This document shows, piece by piece, positions 1 through 54,982 of a DNA stretch of 64,000 nucleotides. Positions within the stretch are counted from its first letter, which is position 1. Each line of letters starts with the position of its first letter. A program made the translations under genes and the position numbers. The DNA comes from Eimeria praecox (lineage: Eukaryota), in assembly GCA_963920595.1 (NCBI GenBank), contig OY986946.1, forward strand, positions 4,774,001 to 4,838,000, in the 5' to 3' direction. The notes under the pieces were generated by a model. The model saw only the letters and a program-made list of their open reading frames with translations. It did not search any database and was not told the DNA's origin.

Positions 1-9
1 AACAACGAT

Positions 10-5424: not shown

Positions 5425-5481
5425 CGCACTTCCTCCTATACACAACCACCGACTCAACAGCTCCTCCGTCATAACAACGAT

Positions 5482-22524: not shown

Positions 22525-22581
22525 CGCACTTCCTCCTATACACAACCACCGACTCAACAGCTCCTCCGTCATAACAACGAT

Positions 22582-25500: not shown

Positions 25501-26154
25501 AACCATACACTGCAGCACATTCACACTGTCCTAACACCCTGCCCCGTCCACGTGCTGCTTGACGCAGTTCCTCTGCAGTTGACCTCAGGCTCCACACACA
25601 CTCGAACACCGCATCTCACCCTGCACATCACCTCTCCAACCTTCACACAACACACCACCTACCCCAGCCTAGGATCTGCTGCGTGCGAAATCCTTCCCCT
25701 CCACAGCCATAAAGCAAGTCAGAACACACATTGTCAATATAACATCCAGCATCCGAAGCTCCTCCATCATCACACCCTATCTCCCCCACATCGCCAATCG
25801 CGCAAACAGATGTCTTGCCGCACACACATACCCACGCCGCTAAATGCCATCCAGCCACGCAAACATACCCAACTACCTGCCACTAAACATGCAACGCGTG
25901 CACAGCGATTAAGCCTGTCCGCCATCCTTATTACCAGCATTCAACACCCTTCCTCCTATACACAGCGATCGACTCAACAACTCCTCCGTCATAACAACGA
26001 GCTGTCCACTGCAACCGACCCTGCCTCCACGCTAGACTCCTGCGCCATGTTGCTCCAGCACACAGGCACAATGTCGCAGATTCAACGCACGGCCTTCTGG
26101 AGACAGCCATCACCCAAATATTTGGCGCCCCCAAATGCCAGAAACTTTGCATGA
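22582..26154 (+). other. Repeat-generated ORF (1,190 aa) ended by a +1 frameshift variant
   Basis: aaatatttgg (extra T) at ~26,120 shifts the frame to ...YLAPPNARNFA*. Confidence 0.15.
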
Positions 26155-29100: not shown

Positions 29101-32100
29101 TGCGTGCGAAATCCTTCCCCTCCACAGCCATAAAGCAAGTCAGAACACACATTGTCAATATAACATCCAGCATCCGAAGCTCCTCCATCATCACACCCTA
29201 TCTCCCCCACATCGCCAATCGCGCAAACAGATGTCTCGCCGCACACACATACCCACGCCGCTAAATGCCATCCAGCCACGCCCACATACCCAATTGCCTG
29301 CCACTAAACATGCAACGCGTGCACAGCGATTAAGCCTGTCCGACATCCTTATTACCAGCATTCAACGCACTTCCTCCTATACACAACCACCGACTCAACA
29401 ACTCCTCCGTCATAACAACGAGCTGTCCACTGCAACCGAGCCTGCCCCCACGCTAGACTCCTGCGTCATGTTGCTCCAGCACACAGGCACAATGCCGCAG
29501 ATTCAACGCACGGCCTTCTGGAGACAGCCATCACCCAAATATTTGGCGCCCCCGAATGCCAGAAACGTTCAATGAAACGCAACATGCCTCCCACCCAGAC
29601 CTGTCAAACCATACACTGCAGCACATTCACACTGTCCTAACACCCTGCCTCATCCACTTGCTTCTTGACGCAGTTCCTCGGCAGTTGACCTCAGGTTCCA
29701 CACACACTCGAACACCGCATCTCATCCTGCACATCACCTCTCCACCCTTCACACAACACACCACCTACCCCAACCTAGCACCCGCTGCGACCGAAACGCT
29801 TCCCCTCCACAGCCATAAAGCAAGTCAGAACACACATTGTCAATATAACATCCAGCATTCGAAGCTCCTCCATCGTCACACCCTACCTCCCCCACTCCGC
29901 CAATCGCGCAAACAGATGTCTTGCCGCACACACATACCAACGCCGCTAAATGCCATCCAGCCACGCAAACATACCCAACTACCTGCCACTAAACATGCAA
30001 CGCGTGCACAGCGATTACGCCTATCCACCATCCTTACTGCCAGCATTCAACGCACTTCCTCCTATACACAACCACCGACTCAACAACTCCTCCGTCATAA
30101 CAACGATTTGACTACTGCAACCGAGCCTGCCTCCACGCGAGACTCCTGCGCCATGTTGCTCTAGCACACAGGCACAATGCCGCAGATTCAGCAATCAGCT
30201 TTCTGGAGACAGCGATCACCCAAACATTGCCGCCCCCAAATGCCAGAAAGGTTCAATGAAACGCAACATGCCTCCCACCCAGACCTGTCAAACCATACAC
30301 TGCAGCACATTCACACTGTCCTAACACCCTGCCTCATCCACTTGCTTTTTGACGCAGTTCCTCTGCAGTTGACCTCAGGTTCCACACACACTCGAACACC
30401 GCATCTCACCCTGCATATCACCTCTCCACCCTTCACACAACACACCACCTACCCCAACCTAGCATCTGCTGCGTGCGAAATGCTACCCCTCCGCAGCCAT
30501 AAAGCAAGTCAGAACACACATTGTCAATATAACATCCAGCATCCGAAGCTCCTCCATCATCACACCCTACCTCCCCCACTTCGCCAATCGCGCAAACAGA
30601 TGTCTTGCCGCACACACATACCCAGGCCGCTAAATGCCATTCAACCACGCCCACATACCTAAAGGCCTGCCACTAAACATGCAACGCGTGCAAAGCAATT
30701 ACGCCTGTCCACAATCTTTATTACGAGCATTTAACGCACTTCCTCCTATACACAACTACCGACTCAACAACTCCTCCGTCCTAAAAACGAGCTGTCCACT
30801 GCAACCGAGCCTGCCTCCACGCGAGACTCCTGCGTCATGTTGCTCCAGCACACAGGCACAATGCCGCAAATTCAGCAATCTGCTTTCTGGAGACAGCCAT
30901 CACCCAAACATTGGCGCCCCCAAATGCCAGAAACTTTGCATGAAACGCAACATGCCTCCCACCCAGACCTGTCAAACCATACACTGCAGCACATTCACAC
31001 TGTCCTAGCACCCTGCCCCATCCACTTGCTTCTTGGAGCCGTTCGTCTGCGGTTGACCTCAGGCTCCACACACACTCGAACACCGCATCTCACCCTGCAC
31101 ATCACCTCTCCACCCTCCACACAACACACCACCTACCCCAACCTAGCACCCGCTGCGACCGAAACGCTTCCCCTCCACAGCCATAAAGCAAGTCAGAACA
31201 CACATTGTCAATATAACATCCAGCATCAGAAGCTCCTCCATCGTCACACCCTACCTCCCCCACATCGCCAATCGCACAAACAGATGTCTTGCCGCACACA
31301 CATACCCACGCCGCTAAATGCCATTCAACCACGCCCACACACCTAAAGGCCTGCCACTAAACATGCAAAGCGTGCACAGCGATTACGCCTATCCACCATC
31401 CTTACTGCCAGCATTCAACGCACTTCCTCCTATACACAACCACCGACTCAACAACTCCTCCGTCATAACAACGATTTGACTACTGCAACCGAGCCTGCCT
31501 CCACGCGAGACTCCTGCGCCATGTTGCTCTAGCACACAGGCACAATGCCGCAGATTCAGCAATCAGCTTTCTGGAGACAGCGATCACCCAAACATTGCCG
31601 CCCCCAAATGCCAGAAAGGTTCAATGAAACGCAACATGCCTCCCACCCAGACCTGTCAAACCATACACTGCAGCACATTCACACTGTCCTAACACCCTGC
31701 CTCATCCACTTGCTTCTTGACGCAGTTCCTCTGCAGTTGACCTCAGGTTCCACACACACTCGAACACCGCATCTCACCCTGCATATCACCTCTCCACCCT
31801 TCACACAACACACCACCTACCCCAACCTAGCATCTGCTGCGTGCGAAATGCTACCCCTCCACAGCCATTAAGCAAGCCAGAACACACATTGTCAATATAA
31901 CATCCAGCATCAGAAGCTCCTCCATCATCACACCCTATCTCCCCCACATCGCCAATCGCGCAAACAGATGTCTTGCCGCACACACATACCCAGGCCGCTA
32001 AATGCCATTCAACCACGCCCACATACCTAAAGGCCTGCCACTAAACATGCAACGCGTGCACGACGATTACGCCTGTCCGACATCCTTATTACCAGCATTC

Positions 32101-35100
32101 AACGCACTTCCTCCTATACACAACCACCGACTCAACAACTCCTCCGTCATAACAACGATTTGACTACTGCAACCGAGCCTGCCTCCACGCGAGACTCCTG
32201 CGTCATGTTGCTCCAGCACACAGGCACAATGCCGCAAATTCAGCAATCTGCTTTCTGGAGACAGCCATCACCCAAACATTGGCGCCCCCAAATGCCAGAA
32301 ACTTTGCATGAAACGCAACATGCCTCCCACCCAGACCTGTCAAACCATACACTGCAGCACATTCACACTGTCCTAACACCCTGCCCCATCCACTTGCTTC
32401 TTGGAGCCGTTCGTCTGCGGTTGACCTCAGGCTCCACACACACTCGAACACCGCATCGCACCCTGCACATCACCTCTCCACCCTCCACACAACACACCGC
32501 CTACCCCAACCTAGCACCCGCTGCGACCGAAACGCTTCCCCTCCACAGCCATAAAGCAAGTCAGAACACACATTGTCAATATAACATCCAGCATCCGAAG
32601 CTCCTCCATCGTCACACCCTACCTCCCCCACATCGTCAATCTCGCAAGCAGATGTCTCGCCGCACACACATACCCACGCCGCTAAATGCCATCCAGCCAC
32701 GCAAACATACCCAACTACCTGCCACTAAACATGCAACGCGTGCACAGCGATTACGCCTATCCACCATCCTTACTGCAAGCATTCAACGCACTTCCTCCTA
32801 TACACAACCACCGACTCAACAACTCCTCCGTCATAACAACGAGCTGTCCACTGCAACCGACCCTGCCTCCACGCTAGACTCCTGCGCCATGTTGCTCCAG
32901 CACACAGGCACAATGCCGCAGATTCAGCAATCATCCTTCCGGAGACAGGGATCACCCGAATATTTGGCGCCCCCAAATGCCAGAAACGTTCAATGAAACG
33001 CAACATGCCTCCCACCCAGACCTGTCAAACCATACACTGCAGCACATTCACACTGTCCTAACACCCTGCCCCATCCACTTGCTTCTTGACGCAGTTCCTC
33101 TGCAGTTGACCTCAGGCTCCACACACACTCGAACACCGCATCTCACCCTGCACATCACCTCTCCACCCTTCACACAACACACCACCTACCCCAACCTAGC
33201 ACCCGCTGCGACCGAAACGCTTCCCCTCCACAGCCATTAAGCAAGTCAGAACACACATTGTCAATATAACATCCAGCATCCGAAGCTCCTCCATCATCAC
33301 ACCCTACCTCCCCCACATCGCCAATCGCGCAAACAGATGTCTTGCCGCACACACATACCCACGCCGCTAAATGCCATTCAACCACGCCCACATACCCAAT
33401 TGCCTGCCACTAAACATGCAAAGCGTGCACAGCGATTACGCCTATCCACCATCCTTACTGCCAGCATTCAACGCACTTCCTCCTATACACAACCACCGAC
33501 TCAACAACTCCTCCGTCATAACAAAGAGTTGACTACTGCAACCGAGCCTGCCTCCACGCGAGACTCCTGCGTCATGTTGCTCCAGCACACAGGCACAATG
33601 TCGCAGATTCAACGCACGGCCTTCTGGAGACAGCCATCACCCGAATATTTGGCGCCCCCAAATGCCAGAAACTTTGCATGAAACGCAACATGCCTCCCAC
33701 CCAGACCTGTCAAACCATACACTGCAGCACATTCACACTGTCCTAACACCCTGCTCCATCCACTTGCTTCTTGACGCAGTTCCTCTGCAGTTGACCTCAG
33801 GCTCCACACACACTCGAACACCGCATCGCACCCTGCACATCACCTCTCCACCCTTCACACAACACACCACCTACCCCAACCTAGCATCTGCTGCGTGCGA
33901 AATGCTACCCCTCCACAGCCATTAAGCAAGCCAGAACACACATTGTCAATATAACATCCAGCATTCGAAGCTCCTCCATCATCACACCCTACCTCCCCCA
34001 CTTCGCCAATCGCGCAAACAGACGTCTTGCCGCACACACATACCCACGCCGCTAAATGCCATTCAACCACGCAAACATACCCAACTGCCTGCCACTAAAC
34101 ATGCAACGCGTGCAAAGCGATTACGCCTGTCCACAATCTTTATTACGAGCATTTAACGCACTTCCTCCTATACACAACCACCGACTCAACAACTCCTCCG
34201 TCATAACAACGATTTGACTACTGCAACCGAGCCTGCCTCCACGCGAGACTCCTGCGTCATGTTGCTCCAGCACACAGGCACAATGCCGCAAATTCAGCAA
34301 CCTGCTTTCTGGAGACAGCCATCACCCAAACATTCGCGCCCTCAAATGCCAGGAACTTTGCATGAAACGCAACATGCCTCCCACCCATACATGTCAATCC
34401 TTACACTACAGCACATTCACACTGTACTAACACCCTGCCCCATCCACTTGTTTCTTGATACAGTTCCTCTGCAGTTGGCCTCAGGCTCCACACACACTCA
34501 AACACCGCATCTCACCCTGCACATCACCCCTCCACCCTCCCCAACCTAGGATCTGCTGCGTGCGAAGTGCTTCCCCTTCACAACCATAAAGCAAGTCAGA
34601 ACACACATTGTCAATATAACATCCAGCATTCGAAGCTCCTCCATCATCACACCCTATCTCCCCCACTTCGCCAATCGCGCAAACAGATGTCTCGCCGCAC
34701 ACACATACCCACGCCGCTAAATGCCATCCAGCCACGCCGACATACCCAACTGCCTGCCACTAAACATGCAAAGCGTGCACGGCGATTACGCCTGTCCGAC
34801 ATCCTTGTTACCAGCATTCAACGCACTTCCTCCTATACACAACCACCGACTCAACAACTCCTCCGTCATAAGAATGAGCTGGCCACTGCAACCGACCCTG
34901 CCTCCACGCTAGACTCCTGCGTCATGTTGCTTCAGCACACAGGCACAATGCCGCAGATTCAACGCACAGCCTTCTGGAGACAGCCATCACCCAAATATTT
35001 GGCGCCCCCAAATGCCAGAAACGTTCAATGAAACGCAACATGCCTCCCACCCAGACCTGTCAAACCATACACTGCAGCACATTCACACTGTCCTAACACC

Positions 35101-37821
35101 CTGCCCCATTCACGTGGCTCTTGAAGCCGTTCGTCTGCGGTTGACCTCAGGCTCCACACACACTCGAACACCGCATCTCATCCGGCACATCACCTCTCCA
35201 CCCTTCACACAACACACCACCTACCCCAACCTAGCACCCGCTGCGACCGAAATGCTTCCCCTCCACAACCATAAAGCAAGTCAGAACACGCATTGTCAAT
35301 ATAACATCCAGCATCCGAAGCTCCTCCATCGCCACACCCTACCTCCCCCACATCGCCAATCGCGCAAACAGATGTCTTGCCGCACACACATACCCACGCC
35401 GCTAAATGCCATCCAGCCACGCAAACATACCCAACTACCTGCCACTAAACATGCAAAGCGTGCACAGCGATTACGCCTGTCCTCCATCCTTATTACCAGC
35501 ATTCAACACCCTTCCTCCTATACACAGCGATCGACTCAACAACTCCTCCGTCATAACAACGAGCTGTCCACTGCAACCGAGCCTGCCTCCACGCTAGACT
35601 CCTGCGTCATGTTGCTCCAGCACACAGGCACAATGCCGCAGATTCAACGCACGGCCTTCTGGAGACAGCCATCACCCGAATATTTGGCGCCCCCAAATGC
35701 CAGAAACGTTCAATGAAACGCAACATGCCTCCCACCCAGACCTGTCAAACCATACACTGCAGCACATTCACACTGTCCTAACACCCTGCCCCATTCACGT
35801 GGCTCTTGAAGCCGTTCGTCTGCGGTTGACCTCAGGCTCCACACACACTCGAACACCGCATCTCATCCTGCACATCACCTCTCCACCCTTCACACAACAC
35901 ACCACCTACCCCAGCCTAGGATCTGCTGCGTGCGAAATCCTTCCCCTCCACAACCATAAAGCAAGTCAGAACACACCTTGTCAATATAACATCCAGCATT
36001 CGAAGCTCCTCCATCGTCACACCCTATCTCCCCCACATCGCCAATCGCGCAAACAGATGTCTCGCCGCACACACATACCCACGCCGCTAAATGCCATCCA
36101 GCCACGCAAACATACCCAACTACCTGCCACTAAACATGCAACGCGTGCACAGCGATTACGCCTATCCACCATCCTTACTGCCAGCATTCAACGCACTTCC
36201 TCCTATACACAACCACCGACTCAACAACTCCTCCGTCATAACAACGAGCTGTCCACTGCAACCGACCCTGCCTCCACGCTAGACTCCTGCGCCATGTTGC
36301 TCCAGCACACAGGCACAATGCCGCAGATTCAGCAATCATCTTTCCGGAGACAGCGATCACCCGAATATTTGGCGCCACCAAATGCCAGAAACGTTCAATG
36401 AAACGCAACATGCCTCCCACCCAGACCTGTCAAACCATACACTGCAGCACATTCACACTGTCCTAACAACCTGCCCCATCCACTTGCTTCTTGACGCAGT
36501 TCCTCTGCAGTTGACCTCAGGCTCCACACACACTCGAACACCGCATCTCCGCCTGCACATCACCTCTCCACCCTTCACACAACACACCACCTACCCCAAC
36601 CTAGCATCTGCTGCGTGTGAAATGCTACCCCTCCACAGCCATTAAGCAATCCAGAACACACATTGTCAATATAACATCCAGCATCCGAAGCTCCTCCATC
36701 ATCACACCCTACCTCCCCCACTTTGCCAATCGCACAAACAGATGTCTCGCCGCACACACATACCCAGGCCGCTAAATGCCATCCAGCCACGCAAACATAC
36801 CCAACTACCTGCCACTAAACATGCAACGCGTGCACAGCGATTACGCCTGTCCACCATCCTTACTGCAAGCATTCAACGCACTTCCTCCTATACACAACCA
36901 CCGACTCAACAACTCCTCCGTCATAACAAAGAGTTGACTACTGCAACCGAGCCTGCCTCCACGCTAGACTCCTGCGTCATGTTGCTCCAGCACACAGGCA
37001 CAATGCCGCAGATTCAGCAATCATCTTTCCGGAGACAGCCATCACCCAAATATTTGGCGCCACCAAATGCCAGAAACGTTCATTGAAACGCAACATGCCT
37101 CCCACCCAGACCTGTCAAACCATACACTGCAGCACATTCACACTGTCCTAACACCCTGCCCCATCCACTTGCTTCTTGACGCAGTTCCTCGGCAGTTGAC
37201 CTCAGGCTCCACACACACTCAAACACCGCATCTCATCCTTCACATCACCTCTCCACCCTTCACACAACACACCACCTACCCCAACCTAGCACCCGCTGCG
37301 ACCGAAACGCTTCCCCTCCACAGCCATTAAGCAAGTCAGAACACACATTGTCAATATAACATCCAGCATCCGAAGCTCCTCCATCGCCACACCCTACCTC
37401 CCCCACTTCGCCAATCGCGCAAACAGATGTCTCGCCGCACACACATACCCACGCCGCTAAATGCCATCCAACCACGCCCACACGCCCAACGGCCTGCCAC
37501 TAAACATGCAAAGCGTGCACAGCGATTAGACCTGTCCGCCATCCTTATTACCAGCATTCAACGCACTTCCTCCTATACACAACGATCGACTCAACAACTC
37601 CTCCGTCATAAGAATGAGCTGTCTACTGCAACCGAGCCTGCCTCCACGCTAGACTCCTGCGTCATGTCGCTCCAGCACACAGGCACAATGTCGCAGATTC
37701 AACGCACGATCTTCTGGAGACAGCCATCACCCAAACATTGGCGCCCCCAAATGCCAGAAACGTTCAATGAAACGCAGCATGCCTCCCACCCAGTGCTGTC
37801 AACGCCTGTACTGCAGCACAT

Positions 37822-37954
37822 GTGCCACACATCACGAGCAACACGATGCACGCCACAGTCAAGCATAAACACTACAGAAGTCTAGCACGCCCTACTGCCA
37901 AGCAAATAAACACAGCCTATTCCATCCACAGTGCCTACTAAGTATTACACTCGC
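37822..37954. other. ~132-bp insertion interrupting the terminal monomer
   Basis: Consensus ctgcagcacat-t-cacactgtccta is split by non-satellite sequence. GCCACAC occurs at both ends (37,824-37,830 and 37,953-37,959). Confidence 0.75.
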
Positions 37955-38585
37955 CACACTGGCCTAACGCCCTGCCCCATCCACTTGGCACTTGAGGCCG
38001 TTCCTCCGCAGTTAGTCTTAGGCGTCACGGCCACACGAACGCCGCCTCGCATCCTACACCTCACATCTCCACCCTTAATGCAACACGCCACTAAGCCAAA
38101 CCTAGCACCTGCTGCGTGCGAAATGCTCTCCCAGGACAACTCTCGAGCAAGCCACAACAGACAATGTCAAAATAACATCTAGCATCAGAAGCTCCTCTAC
38201 CACCGCCCCCTAGCTGCCCCACTTCGCCAGTCGCACATCCCAGATGTTTTGCGCTCCAAATATATGCACGCCGCCCAAGGAGAACCGTGGAGCCCGCATA
38301 CCAACAACTTGTCATTCAACGCTCAAGATCACTATGTACCTTCGCATCCTTATTATCAGCACTCACGAAACGTCTTCGTATGGATTAGGAGCGCCTCAAT
38401 GGCTCATCCGCGAAAGCTACGCCTTTTCCTTTGCTGCCAAGCCTGCCCATGGTGGAGAAGAGCCATGTGGTCTATTGGTGGCGAGTATTGGCTTAGGGCC
38501 GCAGATTAAATCCACACGCTGGAGGCACCAATCGCTTAATCATCTGAGGCATGTTAGCGGCCGCAACTTTGCATGATATGCAAAT
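37955..38585 (+). repeat. Highly diverged terminal satellite monomer
   Basis: Colinear with the monomer: cctaacgccctgccccatccacttg, cctagcacctgctgcgtgcgaaatgct, catccttattatcagca, gcagatta, aactttgcatga. Confidence 0.9.
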
Positions 38586-38589
38586 GGAT

Positions 38590-41500
38590 CCGCCGCTTTG
38601 CGGCGTGCACCCAGTGGCGCATCGTCTGCCGTAAAGGACGCCAGTTTAGGTTCGGATGCACTCTCCTCTTGGGGGGTTCTCGGCCAAACTTACACTCGAG
38701 TGTCTGATGCTTCGCAAACGGCAGGCGCAGAAAGGGACTTGCGTTCCCTCCTCTCCTTCTTCAGCCACATGAGCACTGCAAACTACTCCTTTAGTTTGAA
38801 AGAGACGTGAAAGTATCGTCTGCACTAGAAAACTGTAAAGTGGTTTCTCAACGAACATGCCAGCACCACAACACCCCCAGCTAGTCAAAGCAGCACAAAT
38901 CTGCCAATGCTCCGGACAGCCTTCCTGCTTGTCGTCAACTGCCACAAATCATATTCGGGCACAAGTGAATGCGCACTTCCTGAGGTATCCAGACCGGCAG
39001 TCGTGCGCCACAAATCAAGGTGGAGGCACCGCCTGCAGGAAACTACCTAATGTTTCGTGAGATTGCCTTTCAGCAGTTGGCGCAACGTAGGCAACGATGC
39101 TTGAACAAGCCTGCTGACAGCCGGACCTGCGGTCTGCAAACCAAATTCACAACCAAGACATGATGTCCAATTCTGCAGCTACAAACTGTGTGTATTTAGT
39201 TGACAAACTGCGAAGGCGAATTGTAGCCTTTTCAAATTATTAACGCGGAGCAGCCTCCCAAAACACCAGCATTATGAAGCGGTGTTGTAGTTAGGAAGCC
39301 CTTAATATCGAGGCTGACAGCAAGCAGGATCAAAGGAAGGAAACGCCCCACACAGGCACTGTGACAGCTGCGCGAGGCGTACGTTAGGCCGCAAGCTCTT
39401 TCAGCAGCTGTGCGGACGCACTGCCTGCATTTTGGTTGATGCCACAATCGCTCGCAGCCTCTGGGGAAGTGGCGAAGCATCATATACGCCTTCCACATTA
39501 ACACTTAATTTGTGCCTTCACATTCACAGACAATGAACGGAAGTCAACATGGAGTAGCAATGCATACACAGAAATCCAAAAACGCTTCACCTATAGCTCT
39601 TTCTCGTTGGATGCTGCCTTGAGTAACAAGGGAAGCTCTTTGAAATTCCTTCTTTCCGGGCCACGCGGTTTCATCAGCTGCGTCCATTCCGCCGGCCGCA
39701 CGCAAAGTTTGTGGGCCACACAAATGCGTTGAAAGCACCGCTTAGGCGATTCATCCAAAGCGTCTCACCAACTGAACCCCCAGTACACGAGTTTAGGTCG
39801 GAACCTCCTCAGCTTCCCTTTCACCTACACTTCGCCCCTTTCCCCTTCCCGCATCCCGACGGTTGCACACCAGCATTCCCTTCCATACACACCAGGCGTA
39901 AGAAGCTCTGCAACGCCTGATGCAAGTGTGATGCGTGGCCCACTGCTACGCACTAGTGAACGCCTAGGCCAGCTGAAAGCCAGCAGTGGCCCCTATGTAT
40001 CCTATATAGGCTAAAGCTGCGACGCCGCTCCTGGATGGTGCGCTTGACGCTACAGGATGGAATTACATTGCTAGACTGCGCGCAACCACCAACGACTGAA
40101 CCCGCACAAACCTCTGACCCCAGCATCCTTCTAGGCCGGCTTGCAAGAAATATGGACAGCGCTAGACTAGCTCCCGCTGCCATGCTCATTCATCCCGTTC
40201 CACAAGTGTAGCGTACGAGCTGTTCGGAATGCCATGCCGCTAAATGCCCTCAAATCAAGATGCAGTACACTACCAAGTACTTCTGCGGAGTCCACAGTAG
40301 TGCGAATCAGCAGTCTTACACGCAACCGATAATTGTGCAGGACCACTGTTCAGTGCTCCACTGTCTTAACCTCAACCGACAACACTACAGGCCTTTTCGT
40401 CAGCGTCTAGCAAGGCTGAGCACGAAGAGGGGCACGTGGGAAACATTCTCAACCACACAGGACGCCACGCAGGCGGACAGGCCCGCCTGCAACAAGCCAC
40501 ACAACCGCGCATAGACTCCTGCTGTCTGTCCACAGGCACAGGCTCTCGTACGCCAAGTGAACATAACAGCTGCGTCAATGAGCAATGGCGATCGCTGTAG
40601 TATATTTTGAGACATTATGCGTAGGGAAAGAACAACAAAGCCTGCAATCAGGCCTGGCGGCACATGGAAAGTAGAGCAAAGTGCCTTGTAAATCCATTTA
40701 AGCCTGATCCTGGAGAGTAGAGGGCAGAGCGCAACGGGATGGATGGGGCGATGCTTTGCCACTCTTAGTGCGACGTGGACGCTCCATTTACTCACGAACG
40801 CGGGATTGTATCCGTGGCGCTGGCCAGAACTATAAAGCAAACCGCTCATCCTGGAGCGTCACCAGCGCACCATCGCTGTTTGTCACAGCTTCTGCTAGGC
40901 CGTTTCACGATCGCCAGGTGCCAGTCAGTCGAGCAAAAGGTAGCTGGCACAGTCACTCCATGTGCATACAATCAATGCAGCAGCAACCTTACTGCCTGGT
41001 TGGTATGCATGCAAGAAAAATGGCTCAGCATTTCCACTGAAGACGCTGTCAATGCGCCTTTCGCCCTTGTGGACTGCACTGCACTGCTACTACAGTTCAT
41101 CTGGGGCGAAATGTGTGAAATGCAAATGGACTGCAGCCAGCAGAAAACGCTTAAACGGGAATATTATTGGTTGAAGGCCAATGTCGTGCGCTGCTGCCGA
41201 GTGCAACCGGACGTAGCAGGTACTAGTAGCCGCTTGCATCGGCACATAACGCAATTACACCAAAGAATAAGGCTGCTACTTTTGCTACCGCAGGGTTGAT
41301 GCCAAGCCTCATGCACATACGCGATACATTCGAAGTTCTCCCGAGGCAGAAATAGGCACAAATAGCCTAAGAAATCCATTTTTGGCTGCTATGCGTCGTT
41401 ACCATAGGTGTGTGAAGATGCCAAAGCTGGAACCGCCGCTACAGTCTTACCGATGCTGCCCAGTAATGATAGCGATAGTGATGTGTAGAGGTGGCAATAG

Positions 41501-42740
41501 CAAGCTATCAAGCGTTAAGCTTGAAGACTGAAGCAGAAAAGAGTTTGATCTGAACAGAAGCCGGTCGTCGAGTAGCCAACTCTAAGCGGCAGCAATACTT
41601 TAGTTTTCTTGTTCTTTCCACGGACAACCAGAGCAGCATCCCAGAGCCACGCTGTGCGGCAGCGTCGCTGAACTATTCGACGGCCGAGGTAAACGAATTC
41701 TTTGGTGCAAACGGGTGCAATACACGCTGAAATATGTTGCCATATTCACAGCCACGCCTGGGTTGCTCCCTGAGGCGATGATGAATGCTTCGGCACGATT
41801 CCGCACAGCCTTAACGATATCAAGCCAAACAGCTATCAGTGGAGTGTGCTCTCGGACACTGCCTAGTGCAGGTTTATGCCGCAGACCGCCTGCGAGAGCC
41901 AACAAGCAGCCACTTTATCCCTGGACAGCAGCGCGAAGATGAAGCCTACAACTGCCACGCTATCTTCTTCTCCACGCAAAGCAATGCATAAGTACTTCGG
42001 TGGCGTATCTACGATAAGAAACATAAGCATGCCCGCTGGAGCGTTTACAGTTTCGCCTGGATCACGTGTATTGTTGCATGCATTGGTCTGTCACGCACTC
42101 GCTGCACAGAATGCCATGTTACAGGCTAATGAACCATGGAACGAGCCGACGTCTCCTGCGCTTCGCAGAACGTTCGGGTTCACGCGTCGCTAGTAGCTCG
42201 ACGACGTATTTGCTGTCTCGCCCACACACAGCAGGCAAAAGCATATATTAGGCTTTTGTGGCCTGTCAGCGTTGCCATCCGCTGGCCTTTTCATGTACTC
42301 CTATCCAGGACCCAGCATAATCACCTCCGTCACCTGCTCCCACTACGATCTTATTATTTCGCGGTATTGAGTTGCTCGCGTCACATTAGGGCACCGTGAT
42401 CTTTTGAGAGAATAGATGGCAATCGCAGGACTCTCTGTCTGCTCACCCCAGCACAAGCGCTGGACTGTGAGCTGCGTGTTTTAACAACTCGGCATAATCG
42501 GCTTTATAAACTGCTCCGGCTACCCAGTAGTGACGCACACTCTATATACCCCTCGAGTATCGGCAGCGCCTCGCATATCCTTAATTGTTGTGTGAGCTCA
42601 TTATGCAGCAGGTCATCTTCGGGCAGCATGAAAAGACAGTATTTACGCTAGCCAGCTAGCTGGCTGAGCGTGATCTAGCATCCCTCGGTGCCTCCCCCCC
42701 ACCTCAAGAACGGTTCTTCATCCCTTACACCTGTGGCTTT
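38590..42740 (+). mobile_element. Fossil Ty3/gypsy (chromovirus-type) LTR-retrotransposon pol: RT - RNase H - integrase - chromodomain, non-functional
   Basis: Degenerate motifs in canonical order. RT: HIRAQVNAHFLRYPD (~38,950), LVDK..NY* (39,196-39,243), GV-x10-SP..V.R..L...FFP (39,551-39,658). RNase H: DH....H...RPFRQRLAR (from 40,341). Integrase Zn region: YYW (41,162). Integrase core: G..RF...L..RAN..PLE (41,760-42,050). GPF module: RWPF (42,280). Chromodomain: QYL..PPPHLKN (42,637-42,711). Many stops and frameshifts; catalytic residues lost. Assigned by eye from recalled consensus. Confidence 0.75.
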
Positions 42741-45700
42741 GAGACGTGAAAATATCGTCTGCACTAGAAAACTGTAAAGTGGTTTCTCAACGAACATGCC
42801 AGCACCACAACACCCCCAGCTAGTCAAAGCAGCACAAATCTGCCAATGCTCCGGACAGCCTTCTTGCTTGTCGTCAACTGCCACAAATCATATTCGGGCA
42901 CAAGTGAATGCGCACTTCCTGAGGTATCCAGACCGGCAGTCGTGCGCCACAAATCAAGGTGGAGGCACCGCCTGCAGGAAACTACCTAGTGTTTCGTGAG
43001 ATTGCCTTTCAGCAGTTGGCGCAACGTAGGCAACGATGCTTGAACAAGCCTGCTGACAGCCGGACCTGCGGTCTGCAAACCAAATTCACAACCAAGACAT
43101 GATGTCCAATTCTGCAGCTACAAACTGTGTGTATTTAGTTGACAAACTGCGAAGGCGAATTGTAGCCTTTTCAAATTATTAACGCGGAGCAGCCTCCCAA
43201 AACACCAGCATTATGAAGCGGTGTTGTAGTTAGGAAGCCCTTAATATCGAGGCTGACAGCAAGCAGGATCAAAGGAAGGAAACGCCCCACACAGGCACTG
43301 TGACAGCTGCGCGAGGCGTACGTTAGGCCGCAAGCTCTTTCAGCAGCTGTGCGGACGCACTGCCTGCATTTTGGTCGATGCCACAATCGCTCGCAGCCTC
43401 TGGGGAAGTGGCGAAGCATCATATACGCCTTCCACATTAACACTTAATTTGTGCCTTCACATTCACAGACAATGAACGGAAGTCAACATGGAGTAGCAAT
43501 GCATACACAGAAATCCAAAAACGCTTCACCTATAGCTCTTTCTCGTTGGATGCTGCCTTGAGTAACAAGGGAAGCTCTTTGAAATTCCTTCTTTCCGGGC
43601 CACGCGGTTTCATCAGCTGCGTCCATTCCGCCGGCCGCACGCAAAGTTTGTGGGCCACACAAATGCGTTGAAAGCACCGCTTAGGCGATTCATCCAAAGC
43701 GTCTCACCAACTGAACCCCCAGTACACGAGTTTAGGTCGGAACCTCCTCAGCTTCCCTTTCACCTACACTTCGCCCCTTTCCCCTTCCCGCATCCCGACG
43801 GTTGCACACCAGCATTCCCTTCCATACACACCAGGCGTAAGAAGCTCTGCAACGCCTGATGCAAGTGTGATGCGTGGCCCACTGCTACGCACTAGTGAAC
43901 GCCTAGGCCAGCTGAAAGCCAGCAGTGGCCCCTATGTATCCTATATAGGCTAAAGCTGCGACGCCGCTCCTGGATGGTGCGCTTGACGCTACAGGATGGA
44001 ATTACATTGCTAGACTGCGCGCAACCACCAACGACTGAACCCGCACAAACCTCTGACCCCAGCATCCTTCTAGGCTGGCTTGCAAGAAGTATGGACAGCG
44101 CTAGACTAGCTCCCGCTGCCATGCTCATTCATCCCGTTCCACAAGTGTAGCGTACGAGCTGTTCGGAATGCCATGCCGCTAAACGCCCTCAAATCAAGAT
44201 GCAGTACACTACCAAGTACTTCTGCGGAGTCCACAGTAGTGCGAATCAGCAGTCTTACACGCAACCGATAATTGTGCAGGACCACTGTTCAGTGCTCCAC
44301 TGTCTTAACCTCAACCGACAACACTACAGGCCTTTTCGTCAGCGTCTAGCAAGGCTGAGCACGAAGAGGGGCACGTGGGAAACATTCTCAACCACACAGG
44401 ACGCCACGCAGGCGGACAGGCCCGCCTGCAACAAGCCACACAACCGCGCATAGACTCCTGCTGTCTGTCCACAGGCACAGGCTCTCGTACGCCAAGTGAA
44501 CATAACAGCTGCGTCAATGAGCAATGGCGATCGCTGTAGTATATTTTGAGACATTATGCGTAGGGAAAGAACAACAAAGCCTGCAATCAGGCCTGGCGGC
44601 ACATGGAAAGTAGAGCAAAGTGCCTTGTAAATCCATTTAAGCCTGATCCTGGAGAGTAGAGGGCAGAGCGCAACGAGATGGATGGGGCGATGCTTTGCCA
44701 CTCTTAGTGCGACGTGGACGCTCCATTTACTCACGAACGCGGGATTGTATCCGTGGCGCTGGCCAGAACTATAAAGCAAACCGCTCATCCTGGAGCGTCA
44801 CCAGCGCACCATCGCTGTTTGTCACAGCTTCTGCTAGGCCGTTTCACGATCGCCAGGTGCCAGTCAGTCGAGCAAAAGGTAGCTGGCACAGTCACTCCAT
44901 GTGCATACAATTAATGCAGCAGCAGCCGTACTGCCTGGTTGGTATGCATGCAAGAAAAATGGCTCAGCATTTCCACTGAAGACGCTGTCAATGCGCCTTT
45001 CGCCCTTGTGGACTGCACTGCACTGCTACTACAGTTCATCTGGGGCGAAATGTGTGAAATGCAAATGGACTGCAGCCAGCAGAAAACGCTTAAACGGGAA
45101 TATTATTGGTTGAAGGCCAATGTCGTGCGCTGCTGCCGAGTGCAACCGGACGTAGCAGGTACTAGTAGCCGCTTGCATCGGCACATAACGCAATTACACC
45201 AAAGAATAAGGCTGCTACTTTTGCTACCGCAGGGTTGATGCCAAGCCTCATGCACATACGCGATACATTCGAAGTTCTCCCGAGGCAGAAATAGGCACAA
45301 ATAGCCTAAGAAATCCATTTTTGGCTGCTATGCGTCGTTACCATAGGTGTGTGAAGATGCCAAAGCTGGAACCGCCGCTACAGTCTTACCGATGCTGCCC
45401 AGTAATGATAGCGATAGTGATGTGTAGAGGTGGCAATAGCAAGCTATCAAGCGTTAAGCTTGAAGACTGAAGCAGAAAAGAGTTTGATCTGAACAGAAGC
45501 CGGTCGTCGAGTAGCCAACTCTAAGCGGCAGCAAGACTTTAGTTTTCTTGTTCTTTCCACGGACAACCAGAGCAGCATCCCAGAGCCACGCTGTGCGGCA
45601 GCGTCGCTGAACTATTCGACGGCCGAGGTAAACGAATTCTTTGGTGCAAACGGGTGCAATACACGCTGAAATATGTTGCCATATTCACAGCCACGCCTGG

Positions 45701-46679
45701 GTTGCTCCCTGAGGCGATGATGAATGCTTCGGCACGATTCCGCACAGCCTTAACGATATCAAGCCAAACAGCTATCAGTGGAGTGTGCTCTCGGACACTG
45801 CCTAGTGCAGGTTTATGCCGCAGACCGCCTGCGAGAGCCAACAAGCAGCCACTTTATCCCTGGACAGCAGCGCGAAGATGAAGCCTACAACTGCCACGCT
45901 ATCTTCTTCTCCACGCAAAGCAATGCATAAGTACTTCGGTGGCGTATCTACGATAAGAAACATAAGCATGCCCGCTGGAGCGTTTACAGTTTCGCCTGGA
46001 TCACGTGTATTGTTGCATGCATTGGTCTGTCACGCACTCGCTGCACAGAATGCCATGTTACAGGCTAATGAACCATGGAACGAGCCGACGTCTCCTGCGC
46101 TTCGCAGAACGTTCGGGTTCACGCGTCGCTAGTAGCTCGACGACGTATTTGCTGTCTCGCCCACACACAACAGGCAAAAGCATATATTAGGCTTTTGTGG
46201 CCTGTCAGCGTTGCCATCCGCTGGCCTTTTCATGTACTCCTATCCAGGACCCAGCATAATCACCTCCGTCACCTGCTCCCACTACGATCTTATTATTTCG
46301 CGGTATTGAGTTGCTCGCGTCACATTAGGGCACCGTGATCTTTTGAGAGAATAGATGGCAATCGCAGGACTCTCTATCTGCTCACCCCAGCACAAGCGCT
46401 GGACTGTGAGCTGCGTGTTTTAACAACTCGGCATAATCGGCTTTATAAACTGCTCCGGCTACCCAGGAGTGACGCACACGCTATATACCCCTCGAGTATC
46501 GGCAGCGCCTCGTATATCCTTAATTGTTGTGTGAGCTCATTATGCAGCAGGTCATCTTCGGGCAGCACGAAAAGACAATATTTACGCTAGCCAGCTAGCT
46601 GGCTGAGCGTGATCTAGCATCCCTCGGTGCCTCTCCCCCACTTAAAGAACGGTTGTTCATCGCTTGCATCTATGGCTTT
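38802..46679 (+). repeat. Tandem duplication, 2 x 3,939 bp (38,802-42,740 and 42,741-46,679)
   Basis: gagacgtgaaa starts at 38,802 and 42,741. All ORFs repeat with offset 3,939 (e.g. 39,232/43,171; 42,136/46,075). Confidence 0.98.
42741..46679 (+). mobile_element. Second (duplicated) copy of the fossil chromovirus pol RT-RH-INT-chromo segment
   Basis: Near-identical to 38,802-42,740. Confidence 0.75.
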
Positions 46680-47877
46680 GATGATCATGACGCACCTCGC
46701 AACACTACATTTATGCAGCCTAGCAAATCGTTCATATATCGCAACACTATAAGCAATGCCCTTAAGGCTGTCGTTTTTGTGCGTGTTTACGTTGGACCTC
46801 ATCACAGTACAGTCAAACGTTACCCAACACCTATCTAACGTACCGTCTGGCAGCAAGGCCACATACAGGCCGTGGTTGCTGTAACCTCAAGCCAAGCAAG
46901 TGAGCAATTGCTTGGACCTCAAACAACCGTTAAGCCAGCACTGAAGGCTGAACTTAGCACGCTTTGAAAGGATAGCAAATCTGAAAGGCAACGGAGACAT
47001 TGGCGTGAGTCTCAACCTACTTTCTTTGGGTAGTTTAACACCACCTTTTCAGGCCAGCAAGGCATTAATACACTGTCACCGAGACGTCTACTGAATGCTC
47101 TTCTCAGCAATAGCCGGCGAATGCTATCCCAATGAAATTACTAAATGGAGCAAGGCCAAGTCGGTGGAAATCAGCAAGACCCTGAAAACTGGGAAACGCA
47201 CAAGCAGCTCATGCCCATAACATTTTAACAGCGCGCTTCCAGATAATCTGTGCGCTGACTGACTGCCGCCGTCATACAGTCATCATCACCTGATCTCGAC
47301 GCGTGACCCCATTGAGGGACTGCAGTATTTGTCAAGATTTCGAAAACAGGCCTTAGGTACGGCGCACGCCGCACACTTGGGATGTCGATACTACCCGCTA
47401 CTACGACAACGTCCGTGATCGAAACTTGTGCTCAGGGGCTGGTCGGTGAGACAAATAGTTCCTTCTCCCCTGCTGAAGGCACGAACGGTATCCCCCCTGC
47501 CTTCACTTGCCAGTGACGCGCTTACTAGGAGATGCAGTCAGTTGCATCTCAGCTGAAATTCCCGCACGAACGCCACCGACGAGGACCATGATCATCTGAC
47601 GGTGCCTCTTCAAGCGATTCAGAGGGAAAACCCAAGCTAGAAAACATAAGACTCCGATGTCCCAACGTTCGACTGACATCCGTATATGATCTTGTCTCCT
47701 GGAAAAGAAGCGAACTACCAACTATGTATTTGCGTTTAGTGGTTCCTAAGGTCGTTGTGCCGTGTTCGTTAGGGAAGAGCCCCAGTCTTTACGCGCTGCA
47801 CCTGCGAAGCAAGTGATTCCTAAACTTGTTTTCATTTATTTTTTAATGCATCTAATCCTGTGGCCATCTGACCCGTC

Positions 47878-49950
47878 TTGCCAGCACTTCTGTGCACTCA
47901 GTCCCACAGCAACGCACTAACTACAGAACCAGTACAAGAACCGATTCTGGGTGTTACGATGCCGCAACTCGCCAAGTTTTCGACAGGGCGAAAAACAGTG
48001 TTTTTACGCATGCAGAACCTTGCACTGAACCCCGACCATTGCAGGCGGTGCAGCGCCAAACGAGTCGTTGGCCATTACCTCACTCGTGAAGACTCAGGCA
48101 AGCCCCCATGCAGCAGTGGACGCTAGGTATCTCATCTTTGCCGCTTGCGCAAACGCTTTATACAACGGCCAAATTGCCATCCCAAAGCCGGATTCTTACC
48201 AGACTACGCAGGGCGAGGATTACTGTAGCCATATTCAGGTTCGTTCAGCGGTCTACGAGTCTTTATGACAAAACTTTAAGCGTACATGTATACGCTAGGA
48301 TAATCGGCAGCATAGCTGTACTTCAGCTCCCCACCTTAAGCCAAAGATGCCATCTACTCTAACTCACAAACTGTCCCCGAAGCATACCATTTTTTCTGGA
48401 GCAGCCAATGGGGGCGGTATACTATATTCGTTTTTCATTTGTAGAAATAACCAACCGGTACCCAAGGCTCTCTGGCTAGAAGCTGCTACTACATCCTACC
48501 GAAGGCGCGAAGATATCGCACCACAGTACTGGCAACACACCAGCGGCTAGGCGTAACAAGAAGGCAGGGCAAGTGGATGGAAAGGCACGGGGCCATTTTG
48601 TGCCAAGCAAGAGGAGCGCCGCATCGCTGTGGGATGAATAATGCCATTATCTCTTGAGTCTTTCAGCACCCGAGCCGCCACACCGCAATATTTTGCAGAA
48701 GTAACGGCTTGGTTACAAGTGCAATGCTCCGCAGTGGGTGCTCTCGCTCGTGTGATTCCGTTTCAAAAAAGGGGCTTGGTTTATGCGGCACTGGCGTGAA
48801 TCTTCACAGTAGGTGCGCGGCCCCATTTACCGGTGCGCACGGTTTGGCAGGGTTGGCAATGCTAAAAAGGGTGGAGGCAAGCAATCTCAGCCTGAAACAT
48901 TCTAGTGGTACCTTGCTAAAATTGTTCATCCAGCCAGCGCGTTGCAGCGTCTACGCAGTAAGCAGCCACTAGTCGCAGTCCATCGCCTTTCTGTCCGCAC
49001 TAGGCACTGCAACATCTGTACGATGGCTTGAACATGCGTGCAATCCATTTGCCCACACGGCCGTAAAGATGGCAAACCAATCAGCAGCGCAAACGCGCTC
49101 ATTCATAATCTGTCGCCTTCCTTGCGAATAGTCGAGGGGCAGCACCGTAACAAAGATCTGGCGCTCCCCGATAGCATTCTCACGAAAAATGAATGAATGA
49201 ACAAACGAACACCATAATAACGAAAGTGCCTTCCCTTTGTTGAACGTACACTAAAACGCTGTTGTAAGCACGCCGTCTTGCAACTTAAAGGCACCCAGAT
49301 TTCACGCCAAAAAAGGACCGAAAACATATAACAGGATCTGGTGAGAGAGAAGCGGACACAATAAGTCGTGGAAACCAATTTAAGTGCCGCCTTGCTATTG
49401 CAACGTCCCAAGACGGCCGTCCACGCTGCAGCCAACCGCCGAGTTTATGTGTCTAACCAAATGCTTCCAGCGACGTTCTTGGCCAACAGAGCACTTTTAA
49501 ACGTTACCGCGGTGGTGAATACGGACGCATTCCACGATGAAATATATTGCCGCGTTCGCAGTCGATCCGTGAGGCCAGGCTGAATGCTTCGTCAGCAAGA
49601 TGCCGCACAAACTTAATCATGCCAAGCCAAACAACTACCAGTAGAGCGGGCTCTCTGCAACTGTCAAGTGCAGATGCATGGCACAGACAGCCTATGCGGC
49701 CCAGCAAGCATCCACTTAATCCTTAGAAAACAACACGAAGTTGCAACGGGCCACTGCTACGTCAGCTTCCTCTCCGTGCAGTCCAACGCACAAGCACTTT
49801 CGTGGAGCGTCCAAAGTAGGAAGGAAGGGTCTTTATGCTTGCACATTGAAACGTCTGCAGTTTGGCACGGGTCGCGTTTCTTGTTGCATGCCGGGCCCGT
49901 CACGCACTTGCTGCACAGAATGCCACAGTGCGGTCTAAAAAACTGTCCAG
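47878..49950 (+). mobile_element. Older fossil gypsy pol fragment (RT C-terminus/connection, RNase H start, integrase core)
   Basis: QEPILGVTM resembles the RT 'YLGY.I' motif (ORF 47,878). ITSLVKTQA..IAIP..SAVYE resembles connection 'L..L.KK..' / 'L..PD' / RNase H 'GAVL' (ORF 48,068). 49,575-49,925 is visibly homologous at DNA level to 41,775-42,120. Confidence 0.55.
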
Positions 49951-49999
49951 TAAGCAGCCACTTTAGTACAGCCCATTGTGCCAAGGAGCACCACATTCT

Positions 50000-52800
50000 T
50001 TTCCAGTTGATCGGGTGCTTTCCGATGCCCAGAGCACCTAGCCACCTAGTCAGACTCCAGGGCCTCGTTAGCACCTTAGGGCTGCTTTCACTACCCAAGG
50101 ATACATATACAAAGTTGCAAACCGTTGTCTGCCGCCGCTTTGCGCCGGGCACCCAGCGACGCATCGTTTGCCGTAAAGGACGCCAGTTTAGGTTCGGATG
50201 CACTCTCCTCTTGGGCGGTTCTCGGCCAGACTTACACTCGAGTGTCTGATGCTTCTCAAGCGGCAGGCGCACAAGTGGACTTGCGTTCCCTCCTCTCCTT
50301 CAACCACATGAGCAGTGCAAACTACTCCTTTAGTTTGAAAGGGACGTGAAAGTATCGTCTGCACTAGAAAACTGTAAAGTGGTTTCTCAACGAACATGCC
50401 AGCACCACAACACCCCCAGCTAGTCAAAACAGCACAAATGTGTCTCTGCGCCAATGGTCCGGACAGCCTTCCTGCTTGTCGTCAACTGCCACAAATCATA
50501 TTCGGGCACAAGTGAATGCGCACTTCCTGAGGTATCCAGGCCAGCAGTCGTGCGCCAAAAATAAAGGTGGAGGCATCGCCTGCAAGAAACTACCTAGTGT
50601 TTCGTGAGATTGCCTTTCAGCAGTTGGCGCAACGTAGGCAACGATGCTTGAACAAGCCTGCTGACAGCCGGACCTGCGGTCTGCAAACCAAATTCACAAC
50701 CAAGACATGATGTCTAATTTTGCGTCTCAGCTACAAACTGTGTGTATTTAGTTGACAAACTGCGAAGGCGAATTGTAGCCTTTTCAAATTATTAACGCGG
50801 AGCAGCCTCCCAAAACACCAGCATTATGAAGCGGTGTTGTAGTTAGGAAGCCCTTAATATCGAGGCTGACAGCAAGCAGGATCAAAGGAAGGAAACGCCC
50901 CACACAGGCACTGTGACAGCTGCGCGAGGCGTACGTTAGGCCGCAAGCTCTTTCAGCAGCTGTGCGGACGCACTGCCTGCATTTTGGTCGATGCCACAAT
51001 CGCTCGCAGCCTCTGGGGAAGTGGCGAAGCATCATATACGCCTTCCACATTAACACTTAATTTGTGCCTTCACATTCACAGACAATGAACGGAAGTCAAC
51101 ATGGAGTAGCAATGCATACACAGAAATCCAAAAACGCTTCACCTATAGCTCTTTCTCGTTGGATGCTGCCTTGAGTAACAAGGGAAGCTCTTTGAAATTC
51201 CTTCTTTCCGGGCCACGCGGTTTCATCAGCTGCGTCCATTCCGCCGGCCGCACGCAAAGTTTGTGGGCCACACAAATGCGTTGAAAGCACCGCTTAGGCG
51301 ATTCATCCAAAGCGTCTCACCAACTGAACCCCCAGTACACGAGTTTAGGTCGGAACCTCCTCAGCTTCCCTTTCACCTACACTTCGCCCCTTTCCCCTTC
51401 CCGCATCCCGACGGTTGCACACCAGCATTCCCTTCCATACACACCAGGCGTAAGAAGCTCTGCAACGCCTGATGCAAGTGTGATGCGTGGCCCACTGCTA
51501 CGCACTAGTGAACGCCTAGGCCAGCTGAAAGCCAGCAGTGGCCCCTATGTATCCTATATAGGCTAAAGCTGCGACGCCGCTCCTGGATGGTGCGCTTGAC
51601 GCTACAGGATGGAATTACATTGCTAGACTGCGCGCAACCACCAACGACTGAACCCGCACAAACCTCTGACCCCAGCATCCTTCTAGGCTGGCTTGCAAGA
51701 AGTATGGACAGCGCTAGACTAGCTCCCGCTGCCATGCTCATTCATCCCGTTCCACAAGTGTAGCGTACGAGCTGTTCGGAATGCCATGCCGCTAAACGCC
51801 CTCAAATCAAGATGCAGTACACTACCAAGTACTTCTGCGGAGTCCACAGTAGTGCGAATCAGCAGTCTTACACCCAACCGATAATTGTGCAGGACCACTG
51901 TTCAGTGCTCCACTGTCTTAACCTCAACCGACAACACTACAGGCCTTTTCGTCAGCGTCTAGCAAGGCTGAGCACGAAGAGGGGTGCCTGGGAAATATTC
52001 TCAACCACACAGGACGCCACGCAGGCAGACAGGCCCGCCTGCAACAAGCCACACAACCGCGCATAGACTCCGGCTGTCTGTTCACAGGCACAGGCTCTCG
52101 TACGCCAAGTGAACATAACAGCTGCGTCAATGAGCAATGGCGATCGCTGTAGTATATTTTGAGACATTATGCGTAGGGAAAAGAACAACAAAGCCTGCAG
52201 TCAGGCCTGGCGGCACATGGAAAGTACGAAGGGACTCCTTGCAAATTGAGGTAGACTGGGTCTTCGATTAGAGGATGCGATGTGCCGCACTGCAGATGGC
52301 GCAGGGCTCTGTCACTCTAATGGAAGCATGAGGACCCCACTTAAGAGCATGTCCGGCCTGATACGGCTTGCTGTTGCCGTAAAAGATACAGGTAAGGGGG
52401 CTCCATCTGCGCTTCATGACTGATTACCACCACATCGTCATAAGCTGTGGTTTCTGCAGCTAGGATACGCTGTTGCCATTAGCTAACCTAATTAATGGTG
52501 ACGCCAGGCAGTTTTTAATCCCCAGGCACGCGGCGCGTGCGACCTGGCACCTCTACGCTTCACAGCAAGAAGAAGCTTACAATCTTGGGCAATCCAGTCA
52601 TACAATATTATCCGCCTTTGTGCGTGCATCCAGTTAAGCCGAACTCGCCTCCAAAAGCGTTCATTATTCTGCTGAGAGCAACGGGCGAGACAACAGATTA
52701 GTGAAGTGCCGAAAAGAAAACCAACTAGTCACCCCGTCAGGCGCGAATGTAAGCAACGAAACAGCGCTATCAAGCGCTTCCGCAGTAGCAGGGTGCGCGC
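50000..52800 (+). mobile_element. Third copy of the fossil pol (protease end - RT - RNase H - start of integrase)
   Basis: 50,132-52,225 aligns with 38,590-40,675 (ORF offset 11,552), with residual colinear similarity to ~52,790. Upstream PSHLV..KLQTVVCRRF resembles the end of the protease region. Confidence 0.75.
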
Positions 52801-52939
52801 AATAGTAGATACGCTCCCACGATATCCACCAAAAAGAACAAAGCGTACAGCTAAATGGCTGGATTCGCATTGACCAGCACTAACTACAACGCAGTTCTGA
52901 GCCCGTTGCATGAACACATCTAAGCTTCACACCTAAGAA

Positions 52940-54663: not shown

Positions 54664-54934
54664 AGCGGCATCCGGCTCAGTTTGAATGCCAGCTCACTTC
54701 CTTCAGGTTCGGTGATGCTGCGAATGTTACTGACCTTCAATGAAGTGCTACATAGCACTGCTGCATTTGGTTATGCCGCCAACGCATGTATTGCTCTTGC
54801 TTACCAGGCGAGAAGCCGCGGCAGTGTCGCGGCCCCTGAACACTGTTGCTCATAACTATTGCTAAGAGCAATCGGCAGCATCGGCCCATGAGCTTGAAGT
54901 CGAAGGAATGCGGCATCATGCTATCATAGGAGCA

Positions 54935-54935
<1 letters not shown>

Positions 54936-54979
<44 letters not shown>

Positions 54980-54982
54980 ACG
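54936..54982. repeat. (AC)n microsatellite with degenerate GCACAC tail
   Basis: ~17 AC units (54,936-54,969) followed by gcacacgcacacg. Confidence 0.97.

What the first reader, a model, noticed from the sequence alone, without database searches (positions are those of the whole stretch)
38590..42740. Nearly full-length chromovirus pol ghost hidden in apparently non-coding DNA
No long ORF survives, yet RT, RNase H, integrase Zn region, core, GPF and chromodomain remnants appear in Ty3/gypsy order over ~4.1 kb. Substitution load is extreme (YxDD reads HTQK; chromodomain YLVKW reads YLR*P), while motif spacing is often retained. Standard annotation would likely miss it. LTR retroelements are absent from most apicomplexans but chromovirus-like elements are reported in Eimeria.
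Basis: partly seen in the sequence, partly recalled or inferred. Interest (0 to 1): 0.7.

Follow-up and report, generated by a model that had tools for sequence, protein, structure and literature searches.

The report
Duplicated decayed repeat beside a satellite
This is gene-free DNA copied two to three times next to a long satellite repeat, and it is possibly what is left of a long-dead jumping gene, but the motif order claimed on this strand scores no better than chance and the only hint lies on the opposite strand, so it looks ordinary.

Summary
The claimed plus-strand order RT-RNase H-integrase-chromodomain is not above chance: Pfam, phmmer, frameshift-aware profile tests (91 and 110 gypsy Pol proteins) and HH-suite give decoy-level scores, and the inferred YxDD position moves with the window chosen.

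The span's ends are duplication breakpoints. It is one of 2-3 recent copies (97-99%) of a 7.6-kb block beside a 684-bp satellite of at least 37.7 kb. The block is built from older 3.7-4.2-kb paralogues (53-72%) with a faint codon-phase bias.

An unbiased scan finds its best Pol-like collinearity on the minus strand, 47.4 to 44.7 kb, whose RNase H-to-chromodomain part is duplicated at 42.5 to 40.8 kb (z 5.0; best decoy 3.1). The paralogues did not confirm it.

Verdict: about even odds of a dead chromovirus-like relic, a kind already reported in hundreds of fragments per Eimeria genome. The host was not identified. Look-ups of earlier findings showed nothing on this DNA.

The parts
1..38583 (.). 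Tandem array of a 684-bp C/A-rich unit that runs off the left end of the window; last full unit 37055-37738, degenerate edge to 38583
   Evidence: 55 anchors spaced 684-685 bp, one gap of 1350; mean 25.7 differences between 46 full-length units; edge 63-90%; GC skew about -0.48
5425..22524 (+). Stop-free frame of 5,699 codons inside the satellite; no sign of purifying selection
   Evidence: 37 synonymous, 93 non-synonymous and 4 stop variants against 38.5, 91.1 and 4.4 expected; no significant Pfam, Atlas or homologue hit
38590..42742 (.).
   Evidence: satellite junction bridged without differences in runs X2 and X3
42741..46681 (.). Copy 2 of unit A, equal to 38802-42742
   Evidence: 99.3%, 27 substitutions, no gaps; no listed contig bridges the 42742/42743 joint (tables cut)
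46682..50131 (.). Unit B, an old paralogue of A; with A it makes the 7.6-kb block 42743-50342
   Evidence: 47859-48141 matches 43649-43950 at 56%; 49513-49959 matches 45642-46089 at 69-78%; one 4,907-bp contig of X1 runs from B into the whole of A
50132..52226 (.). Copy 3 of the 5' part of unit A, equal to 38590-40673
   Evidence: 97.3%; right junction seen as a loose end in X2 and X3
52227..53916 (.). Unit C, a third old paralogue that continues in register after copy 3
   Evidence: patches of 53-71% identity to A and B, scores 49-79 against a null maximum of 39
41703..42134 (.). Best-conserved block among the paralogues (also 45642-46073, 49513-49943 and, split, 53146-53916); identity unresolved
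   Evidence: 72% A-B, 56% A-C; an 84-aa ORF from an unnamed ENA contig aligns without gaps at 38%; no match to Pol
44750..47400 (-). Candidate Ty3/gypsy pol relic (inferred, unconfirmed): RT about 47360-46500 with best-fit YxDD at 46817, RNase H about 46450-46100, integrase about 45750-45000, chromodomain about 44800
   Evidence: 31 and 24 bits above permuted profiles, z 5.0, second profile z 3.5; posterior positions; HH-suite 214 columns, E 0.19
40810..42742 (-).
   Evidence: copy-2 positions minus 3939; quarter-profile ranks 2 and 3 of 240 at 42001-42843 and 41101-41973

Best explanation
The span is one of two to three recent DNA copies of a gene-free 7.6-kb block next to a 684-bp satellite, and the block is likely built from ancient, dead Ty3/gypsy (chromovirus-like) pol units that would read on the minus strand, not the plus strand. 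Shown: the copies, their breakpoints, the three older paralogues and the absence of an ORF. Inferred: the units once coded for protein (codon-phase bias); they came from retroelement insertion or tandem duplication long ago; they decayed to roughly 50% identity or less to the active ancestor. Also inferred: they now spread only by unequal crossing-over and gene conversion, together with the satellite edge, in a gene desert that may be subtelomeric. No present function is needed.
For: Copies at 99.3% and 97.3%; junctions seen in runs from other studies. Copy 3 ends and unit C goes on in register at 53%, as expected of exchange between old paralogues. Mismatches between paralogues pile up in one codon phase: three-way identical columns 56, 38 and 56 of 115; p 0.017 for B-C and 0.070 for unit A. 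In a scan of 188 windows the minus window 44551-47600 lies 30.8 and 23.8 bits above order-permuted profiles, 0 of 24 as good; the best of 188 reversed-DNA decoys reach 14.2 and 8.7 on re-test. Three quarter-profiles slid independently rank 2, 2-3 and 3 of 240 on the minus strand in Pol order and spacing. HH-suite gives its only long alignment, RT palm to RNase H, in the same register. Reid 2014 lists 777 and 1,353 fragmented copies in two Eimeria species.
Against: The minus peak was picked after a scan, and the planned scan-level null was lost with the script machine. Its absolute log-odds stay negative (-27, -2.5, -9). Each quarter-profile score is only at decoy level, and the HH-suite E is 0.19. 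Adding paralogues B and C lowered the RNase H slice from 11.3 to 6.6 bits and favoured another register. Two- and three-copy tests of the conserved block give 16-17 bits, equal to the null, where a real core would give 25-85. The phase-defined frames match neither Pol nor PDB. A plus window over the same DNA reaches 13.6 bits, so noise of that size occurs. With free phase the periodicity test is null (p 0.72). The host is unknown.
Confidence: 0.5

Rival explanations
1. The 3.7-4.2-kb units are a pseudogenised tandem array of a host gene family (for example surface antigens), and the conserved blocks are former exons.
For: Patchy conservation with one codon phase more diverged. The A-C indels of 366 and 6 bases keep the frame (offsets). 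A gapless 38% relative exists elsewhere. sag arrays are reported in E. tenella (PMC9131526, passages).
Against: No Pfam family in 6 frames of A or 12 frames over the B and C blocks. It does not explain the minus-strand Pol signal.
Confidence: 0.2
2. The units never coded for anything: they are old non-coding segmental repeats or LTR-like blocks, and all motif likenesses are chance.
For: At least four mutually exclusive registers look plausible. Nothing reaches single-domain significance. The 0.42-kb block starts TG and ends CA in A and B.
Against: Phase bias. All five real peaks beat all seven re-tested decoys at the higher decay setting. No purine tract or target-site duplication at the block, and homology crosses its left edge.
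Confidence: 0.18
3. One reading: a near-complete plus-strand pol from RT to chromodomain lies in 38590-42740.
For: z 1.58 for the span. Plus windows 40501-43550 and 51001-54050 reach z 2.5 and 2.3-4.5.
Against: All tests listed in the observation check. A forced fit must end near the span's end in any case. The span's ends are breakpoints. It cannot coexist with the stronger minus signal on the same bases.
Confidence: 0.12

Closest known systems
Fragmented chromoviral LTR retrotransposons of Eimeria (eimten1LTR and relatives; Reid et al. 2014, PMC4199364; passages of main text and of supplements 5 and 6)
   Same: Dead, stop-ridden, highly diverged gypsy pol in a gene-free region; domain order as in the minus-strand candidate.
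   Different: Reid's copies were found by HMM search at E<=0.01; nothing here reaches that. No LTR pair, primer site or purine tract was shown. The host here is unidentified.
Degraded LTR elements of Cyclospora cayetanensis (PMC4851813, passages)
   Same: Putative elements in which no RT or chromodomain could be detected.
   Different: Those have LTR pairs 85-98.6% alike; the only LTR-like pair here is 69-72% alike and lacks the other marks.
Gene-poor, low-uniqueness subtelomeres of Eimeria tenella and Toxoplasma gondii (PMC9131526, passages)
   Same: No gene, tRNA or Rfam family was found; segmental duplication; strong GC skew with the C-rich strand to the left.
   Different: No telomere lies in the window, so the position is inferred; those passages name no 684-bp satellite.

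Membership tests
Ty3/gypsy chromovirus | RT domain with YxDD | tested here: inconclusive
   Plus strand: decoy level and unstable position. Minus strand: best fit at 46817, posterior 0.79, motif not intact; HH-suite E 0.19.
Ty3/gypsy chromovirus | RNase H after RT | tested here: inconclusive
   Best RNase H signal is on the minus strand near 42.0-42.8 kb but falls when paralogues are added.
Ty3/gypsy chromovirus | Integrase (HHCC finger, DDE core, GPY/F) downstream of RNase H | tested here: inconclusive
   No significant single-domain hit; minus quarter-profile rank 3 of 240, below the best decoy.
Ty3/gypsy chromovirus | Chromodomain at the integrase C-terminus | tested here: inconclusive
   No chromodomain hit above controls anywhere; minus best fit has posterior 0.30.
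   power ends near 1.2 substitutions per site
Ty3/gypsy chromovirus | LTR pair with primer-binding site, purine tract and target-site duplication | tested here: not met
   A TG..CA block of 0.42 kb recurs, with 8 of 15 purines upstream and unlike flanks; primer site judged by eye only.
Ty3/gypsy chromovirus | gag upstream of pol | tested here: inconclusive
   A 78-sequence Gag profile gives 16-22 bits on both strands, with no specific hit.
Eimeria chromovirus family (eimten1LTR) | RT groups with Eimeria elements and the host is an eimeriid | not testable with these tools
   No Eimeria name among the 120 Pol proteins listed, most of which carry no species name; no genome; organism names coded.

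The most novel reading that the evidence does not exclude
A tandem array of dead chromovirus pol units has become structural chromosome-end or pericentromeric DNA in a coccidian, travelling between loci with the edge of an undescribed 684-bp satellite that keeps a 5,699-codon open frame.
Probability: 0.08. Interest if true: 0.5.

Novelty: new member of a known kind. Interest (0 to 1): 0.14.

Why it matters
If true, it is one more unannotated, very old gypsy relic. It would suggest that coccidian gene deserts hold more retroelement debris than HMM-based counts show, and that such debris is recycled by segmental duplication. That changes repeat annotation, not biology. The case is also a caution: at this level of decay several incompatible by-eye motif orders look convincing, so decoy-calibrated tests on both strands are needed.

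Tried and rejected
No signal from: Pfam, PDB, Rfam on 36000-64000, tRNA scan, word-based homologue searches of the conserved block and the satellite unit, ESM Atlas on the satellite unit, hmmsearch --max, tblastn with 148 ORFs (best row E 0.008, in the satellite) and 17 single Pol proteins as profiles.

Motif scans for copia and LINE references found 0 loci, so those classes were not tested. No RNA holder was listed, and raw-read run X6 laid 0 reads; neither is evidence.

Rejected: that the satellite derives from gag or pol; that its open frame is a selected gene; that the 0.42-kb block is the integrase core or a proven LTR; and my own plus-strand register over 49501-52550 (z 1.1, 1.2 and -0.6).

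The TGCATGCA octamer (recalled as an Eimeria mark) is not enriched: 6 against 6.3 expected. Scoring of hand-picked segments was not carried out, so single motif assignments are judged only through posterior positions. The scan-level permutation null was not obtained. Ling 2007 was not held. Three look-ups of earlier findings gave three notes on Dam-bearing gypsy elements, which do not bear on this, and nothing by sequence or place.

Full report
Anatomy. Bases 1-37738 are a tandem array of a 684-bp unit (55 anchors) with a degenerate edge to 38583. 38802-42742 is repeated at 42741-46681 (99.3%, 27 substitutions) and 38590-40673 at 50132-52226 (97.3%). The span's ends are therefore duplication breakpoints, and 42743-50342 is a 7.6-kb block. 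Four runs from three studies hold 75-82% of the sampled words; one may be the window's own source. Contigs bridge the satellite junction (X2, X3) and the A-B junction (X3), show the copy 3-C junction as a loose end, and one X1 contig runs from B into the whole of A. No listed piece bridges 42742/42743, so that joint is unconfirmed. Below these recent copies lie three old paralogues, A, B and C, 53-72% alike in patches at offsets of 3.65-4.2 kb.

References. Motif scans gave 140 loci, with 17 long Pol ORFs; 8 of 8 checked carry RT, RNase H, integrase and chromodomain in Pfam. One profile used 91 of 148 ORFs. A second used 110 sequences kept from those 17 and 120 database hits after dropping short or rearranged ones. 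No listed name is from an apicomplexan, most carry no species name, and this is the main weakness of every test below.

The span has no ORF above 176 codons and the quoted residues exist at 39563-39574 and 42640-42654. Pfam, PDB, phmmer, tblastn and hmmsearch found no retroelement domain. A codon-decay, frameshift-aware aligner gave 18-20 bits, within controls, and chains reached z 1.35 at most. The best hits of 11 domains are not in order. End to end, the span scored 5 bits below the reversed profile, whereas 53 of 54 held-out decayed Pol genes scored above it, and 9 of 9 by 9-32 bits at 0.9 substitutions per site with 3% indels. That test assumes RT starts in the first 350 bases. The freer protease-to-chromodomain version gave z 1.58, against 3.8 and 5.4 for controls at 0.9 and at most 2.0 at 1.2 or more. 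The posterior place of YxDD depends on which copy is read. HH-suite aligned only 30-39 columns in the three plus frames. The plus-strand order is not supported, though decay beyond about 1.2 substitutions per site cannot be excluded.

The minus-strand hint. Sliding the whole profile over 188 windows gave a peak on the minus strand at 44551-47600. On re-test it lay 30.8 and 23.8 bits above permuted profiles (z 5.0), and z 3.5 with the other profile. The best of 188 reversed-DNA decoys reached 14.2 and 8.7 bits, z 3.1. Four other real windows reached 11-19 bits, one of them on the opposite strand of the same DNA, so part of this is noise. Quarter-profiles ranked RT, RNase H and integrase 2nd, 2nd-3rd and 3rd of 240 in the right order, each at decoy height. 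HH-suite aligned 214 columns from RT palm to RNase H in the same register, E 0.19; the other two minus frames gave 19 and 30 columns. Against it: absolute log-odds are negative; adding paralogues lowered the signal and raised a different register; joint tests of the conserved block are null despite good power; and the frames set by codon phase match nothing. The scan-level null was lost.

Former coding. Mismatches between paralogues favour one phase: 56, 38 and 56 of 115 three-way identities; p 0.017 and 0.070 in two fixed-phase tests; p 0.72 with free phase. This is a weak sign that the units once coded for protein, on either strand.

Mechanism. Shown: repeated DNA-level duplication, and no coding capacity today. 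Inferred: an old coding unit of about 3.8 kb, more likely than not a gypsy pol, was arrayed, decayed, and was later recopied by unequal exchange with the satellite edge. X2 and X3 hold a second satellite end that appears to join this block 40 bases further upstream. A subtelomeric position is inferred from gene absence and skew only.

The satellite. One frame is stop-free for 5,699 codons. 59 of 4,000 shuffled units have such a frame, but the variants are neutral (37, 93, 4 against 38.5, 91.1, 4.4) and nothing related was found. It shows no link to pol or to the block.

Comparison with print. Reid 2014 (PMC4199364; passages, supplements 5 and 6; file 1 not searched) reports highly fragmented chromoviruses, with 777 and 1,353 fragments in two species. 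PMC9141347 finds gypsy-like elements in all nine Eimeria genomes studied, and PMC4851813 finds LTR elements without detectable RT in Cyclospora (passages). PMC9131526 describes gene-poor, low-uniqueness subtelomeres, and PMC8515493 lists 32 degraded LTR elements (passages). PMC11912684 and bioRxiv 10.64898/2026.09.17.752431 (passages, supplements not seen) added nothing on this locus. The titles and abstract starts listed by four searches named no 684-bp satellite, which does not show it is undescribed. The host is not identified. The dinucleotide bias (GC 1.39, CA 1.30, TA 0.75) fits a coccidian, by my recall only.

Verdict. Observation partly confirmed; interpretation partly supported as to class, not as to strand or motifs; at best a further member of a known kind; interest 0.14.

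Noticed in passing
window 1-38583: Satellite of at least 37.7 kb with a 684-bp unit, most uniform in the centre and diverged towards the edge; one frame stays open for 5,699 codons, yet variants are neutral. No relative found.
   Followed up: yes
window 38307-38582 and 50092 (runs X2, X3): A second satellite end with 34 differences appears to join the same block 40 bases upstream of the junction used in this window, pointing to at least two loci with this arrangement.
   Followed up: partly
window 42742/42743: No listed contig of four runs bridges this joint, while the other junctions are seen; it may be strain-specific or an assembly error.
   Followed up: partly
window 51001-54050 (+) and 54001-57050 (-): Two further windows with Pol-like collinearity of 11-19 bits above permuted profiles, weaker with the second profile (z 2.4 and 0.8).
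   Followed up: partly
window 43649-43950 and 47859-48141: This paralogous pair scores best as RT palm on the minus strand and rises from 6.7 to 9.1 bits when both copies are used, a register that conflicts with the main candidate.
   Followed up: partly
window 53234-53628: Unit C has about 366 extra bases inside the conserved block relative to A and B, a multiple of three.
   Followed up: no
window 54385-54624 and 59386-59619; 44842-45025 and 49774-49941: Two further weak old repeats, one direct (62%) and one inverted (60%).
   Followed up: no
window 54936-54981: (AC)23 microsatellite, the only short tandem repeat reported in the window.
   Followed up: no
P0030, P0072, P0088, P0103, P0111: Five of the 120 listed chromodomain-type Pol proteins also carry Pfam PF00692; two of them are named dUTPase by their source.
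   Followed up: no
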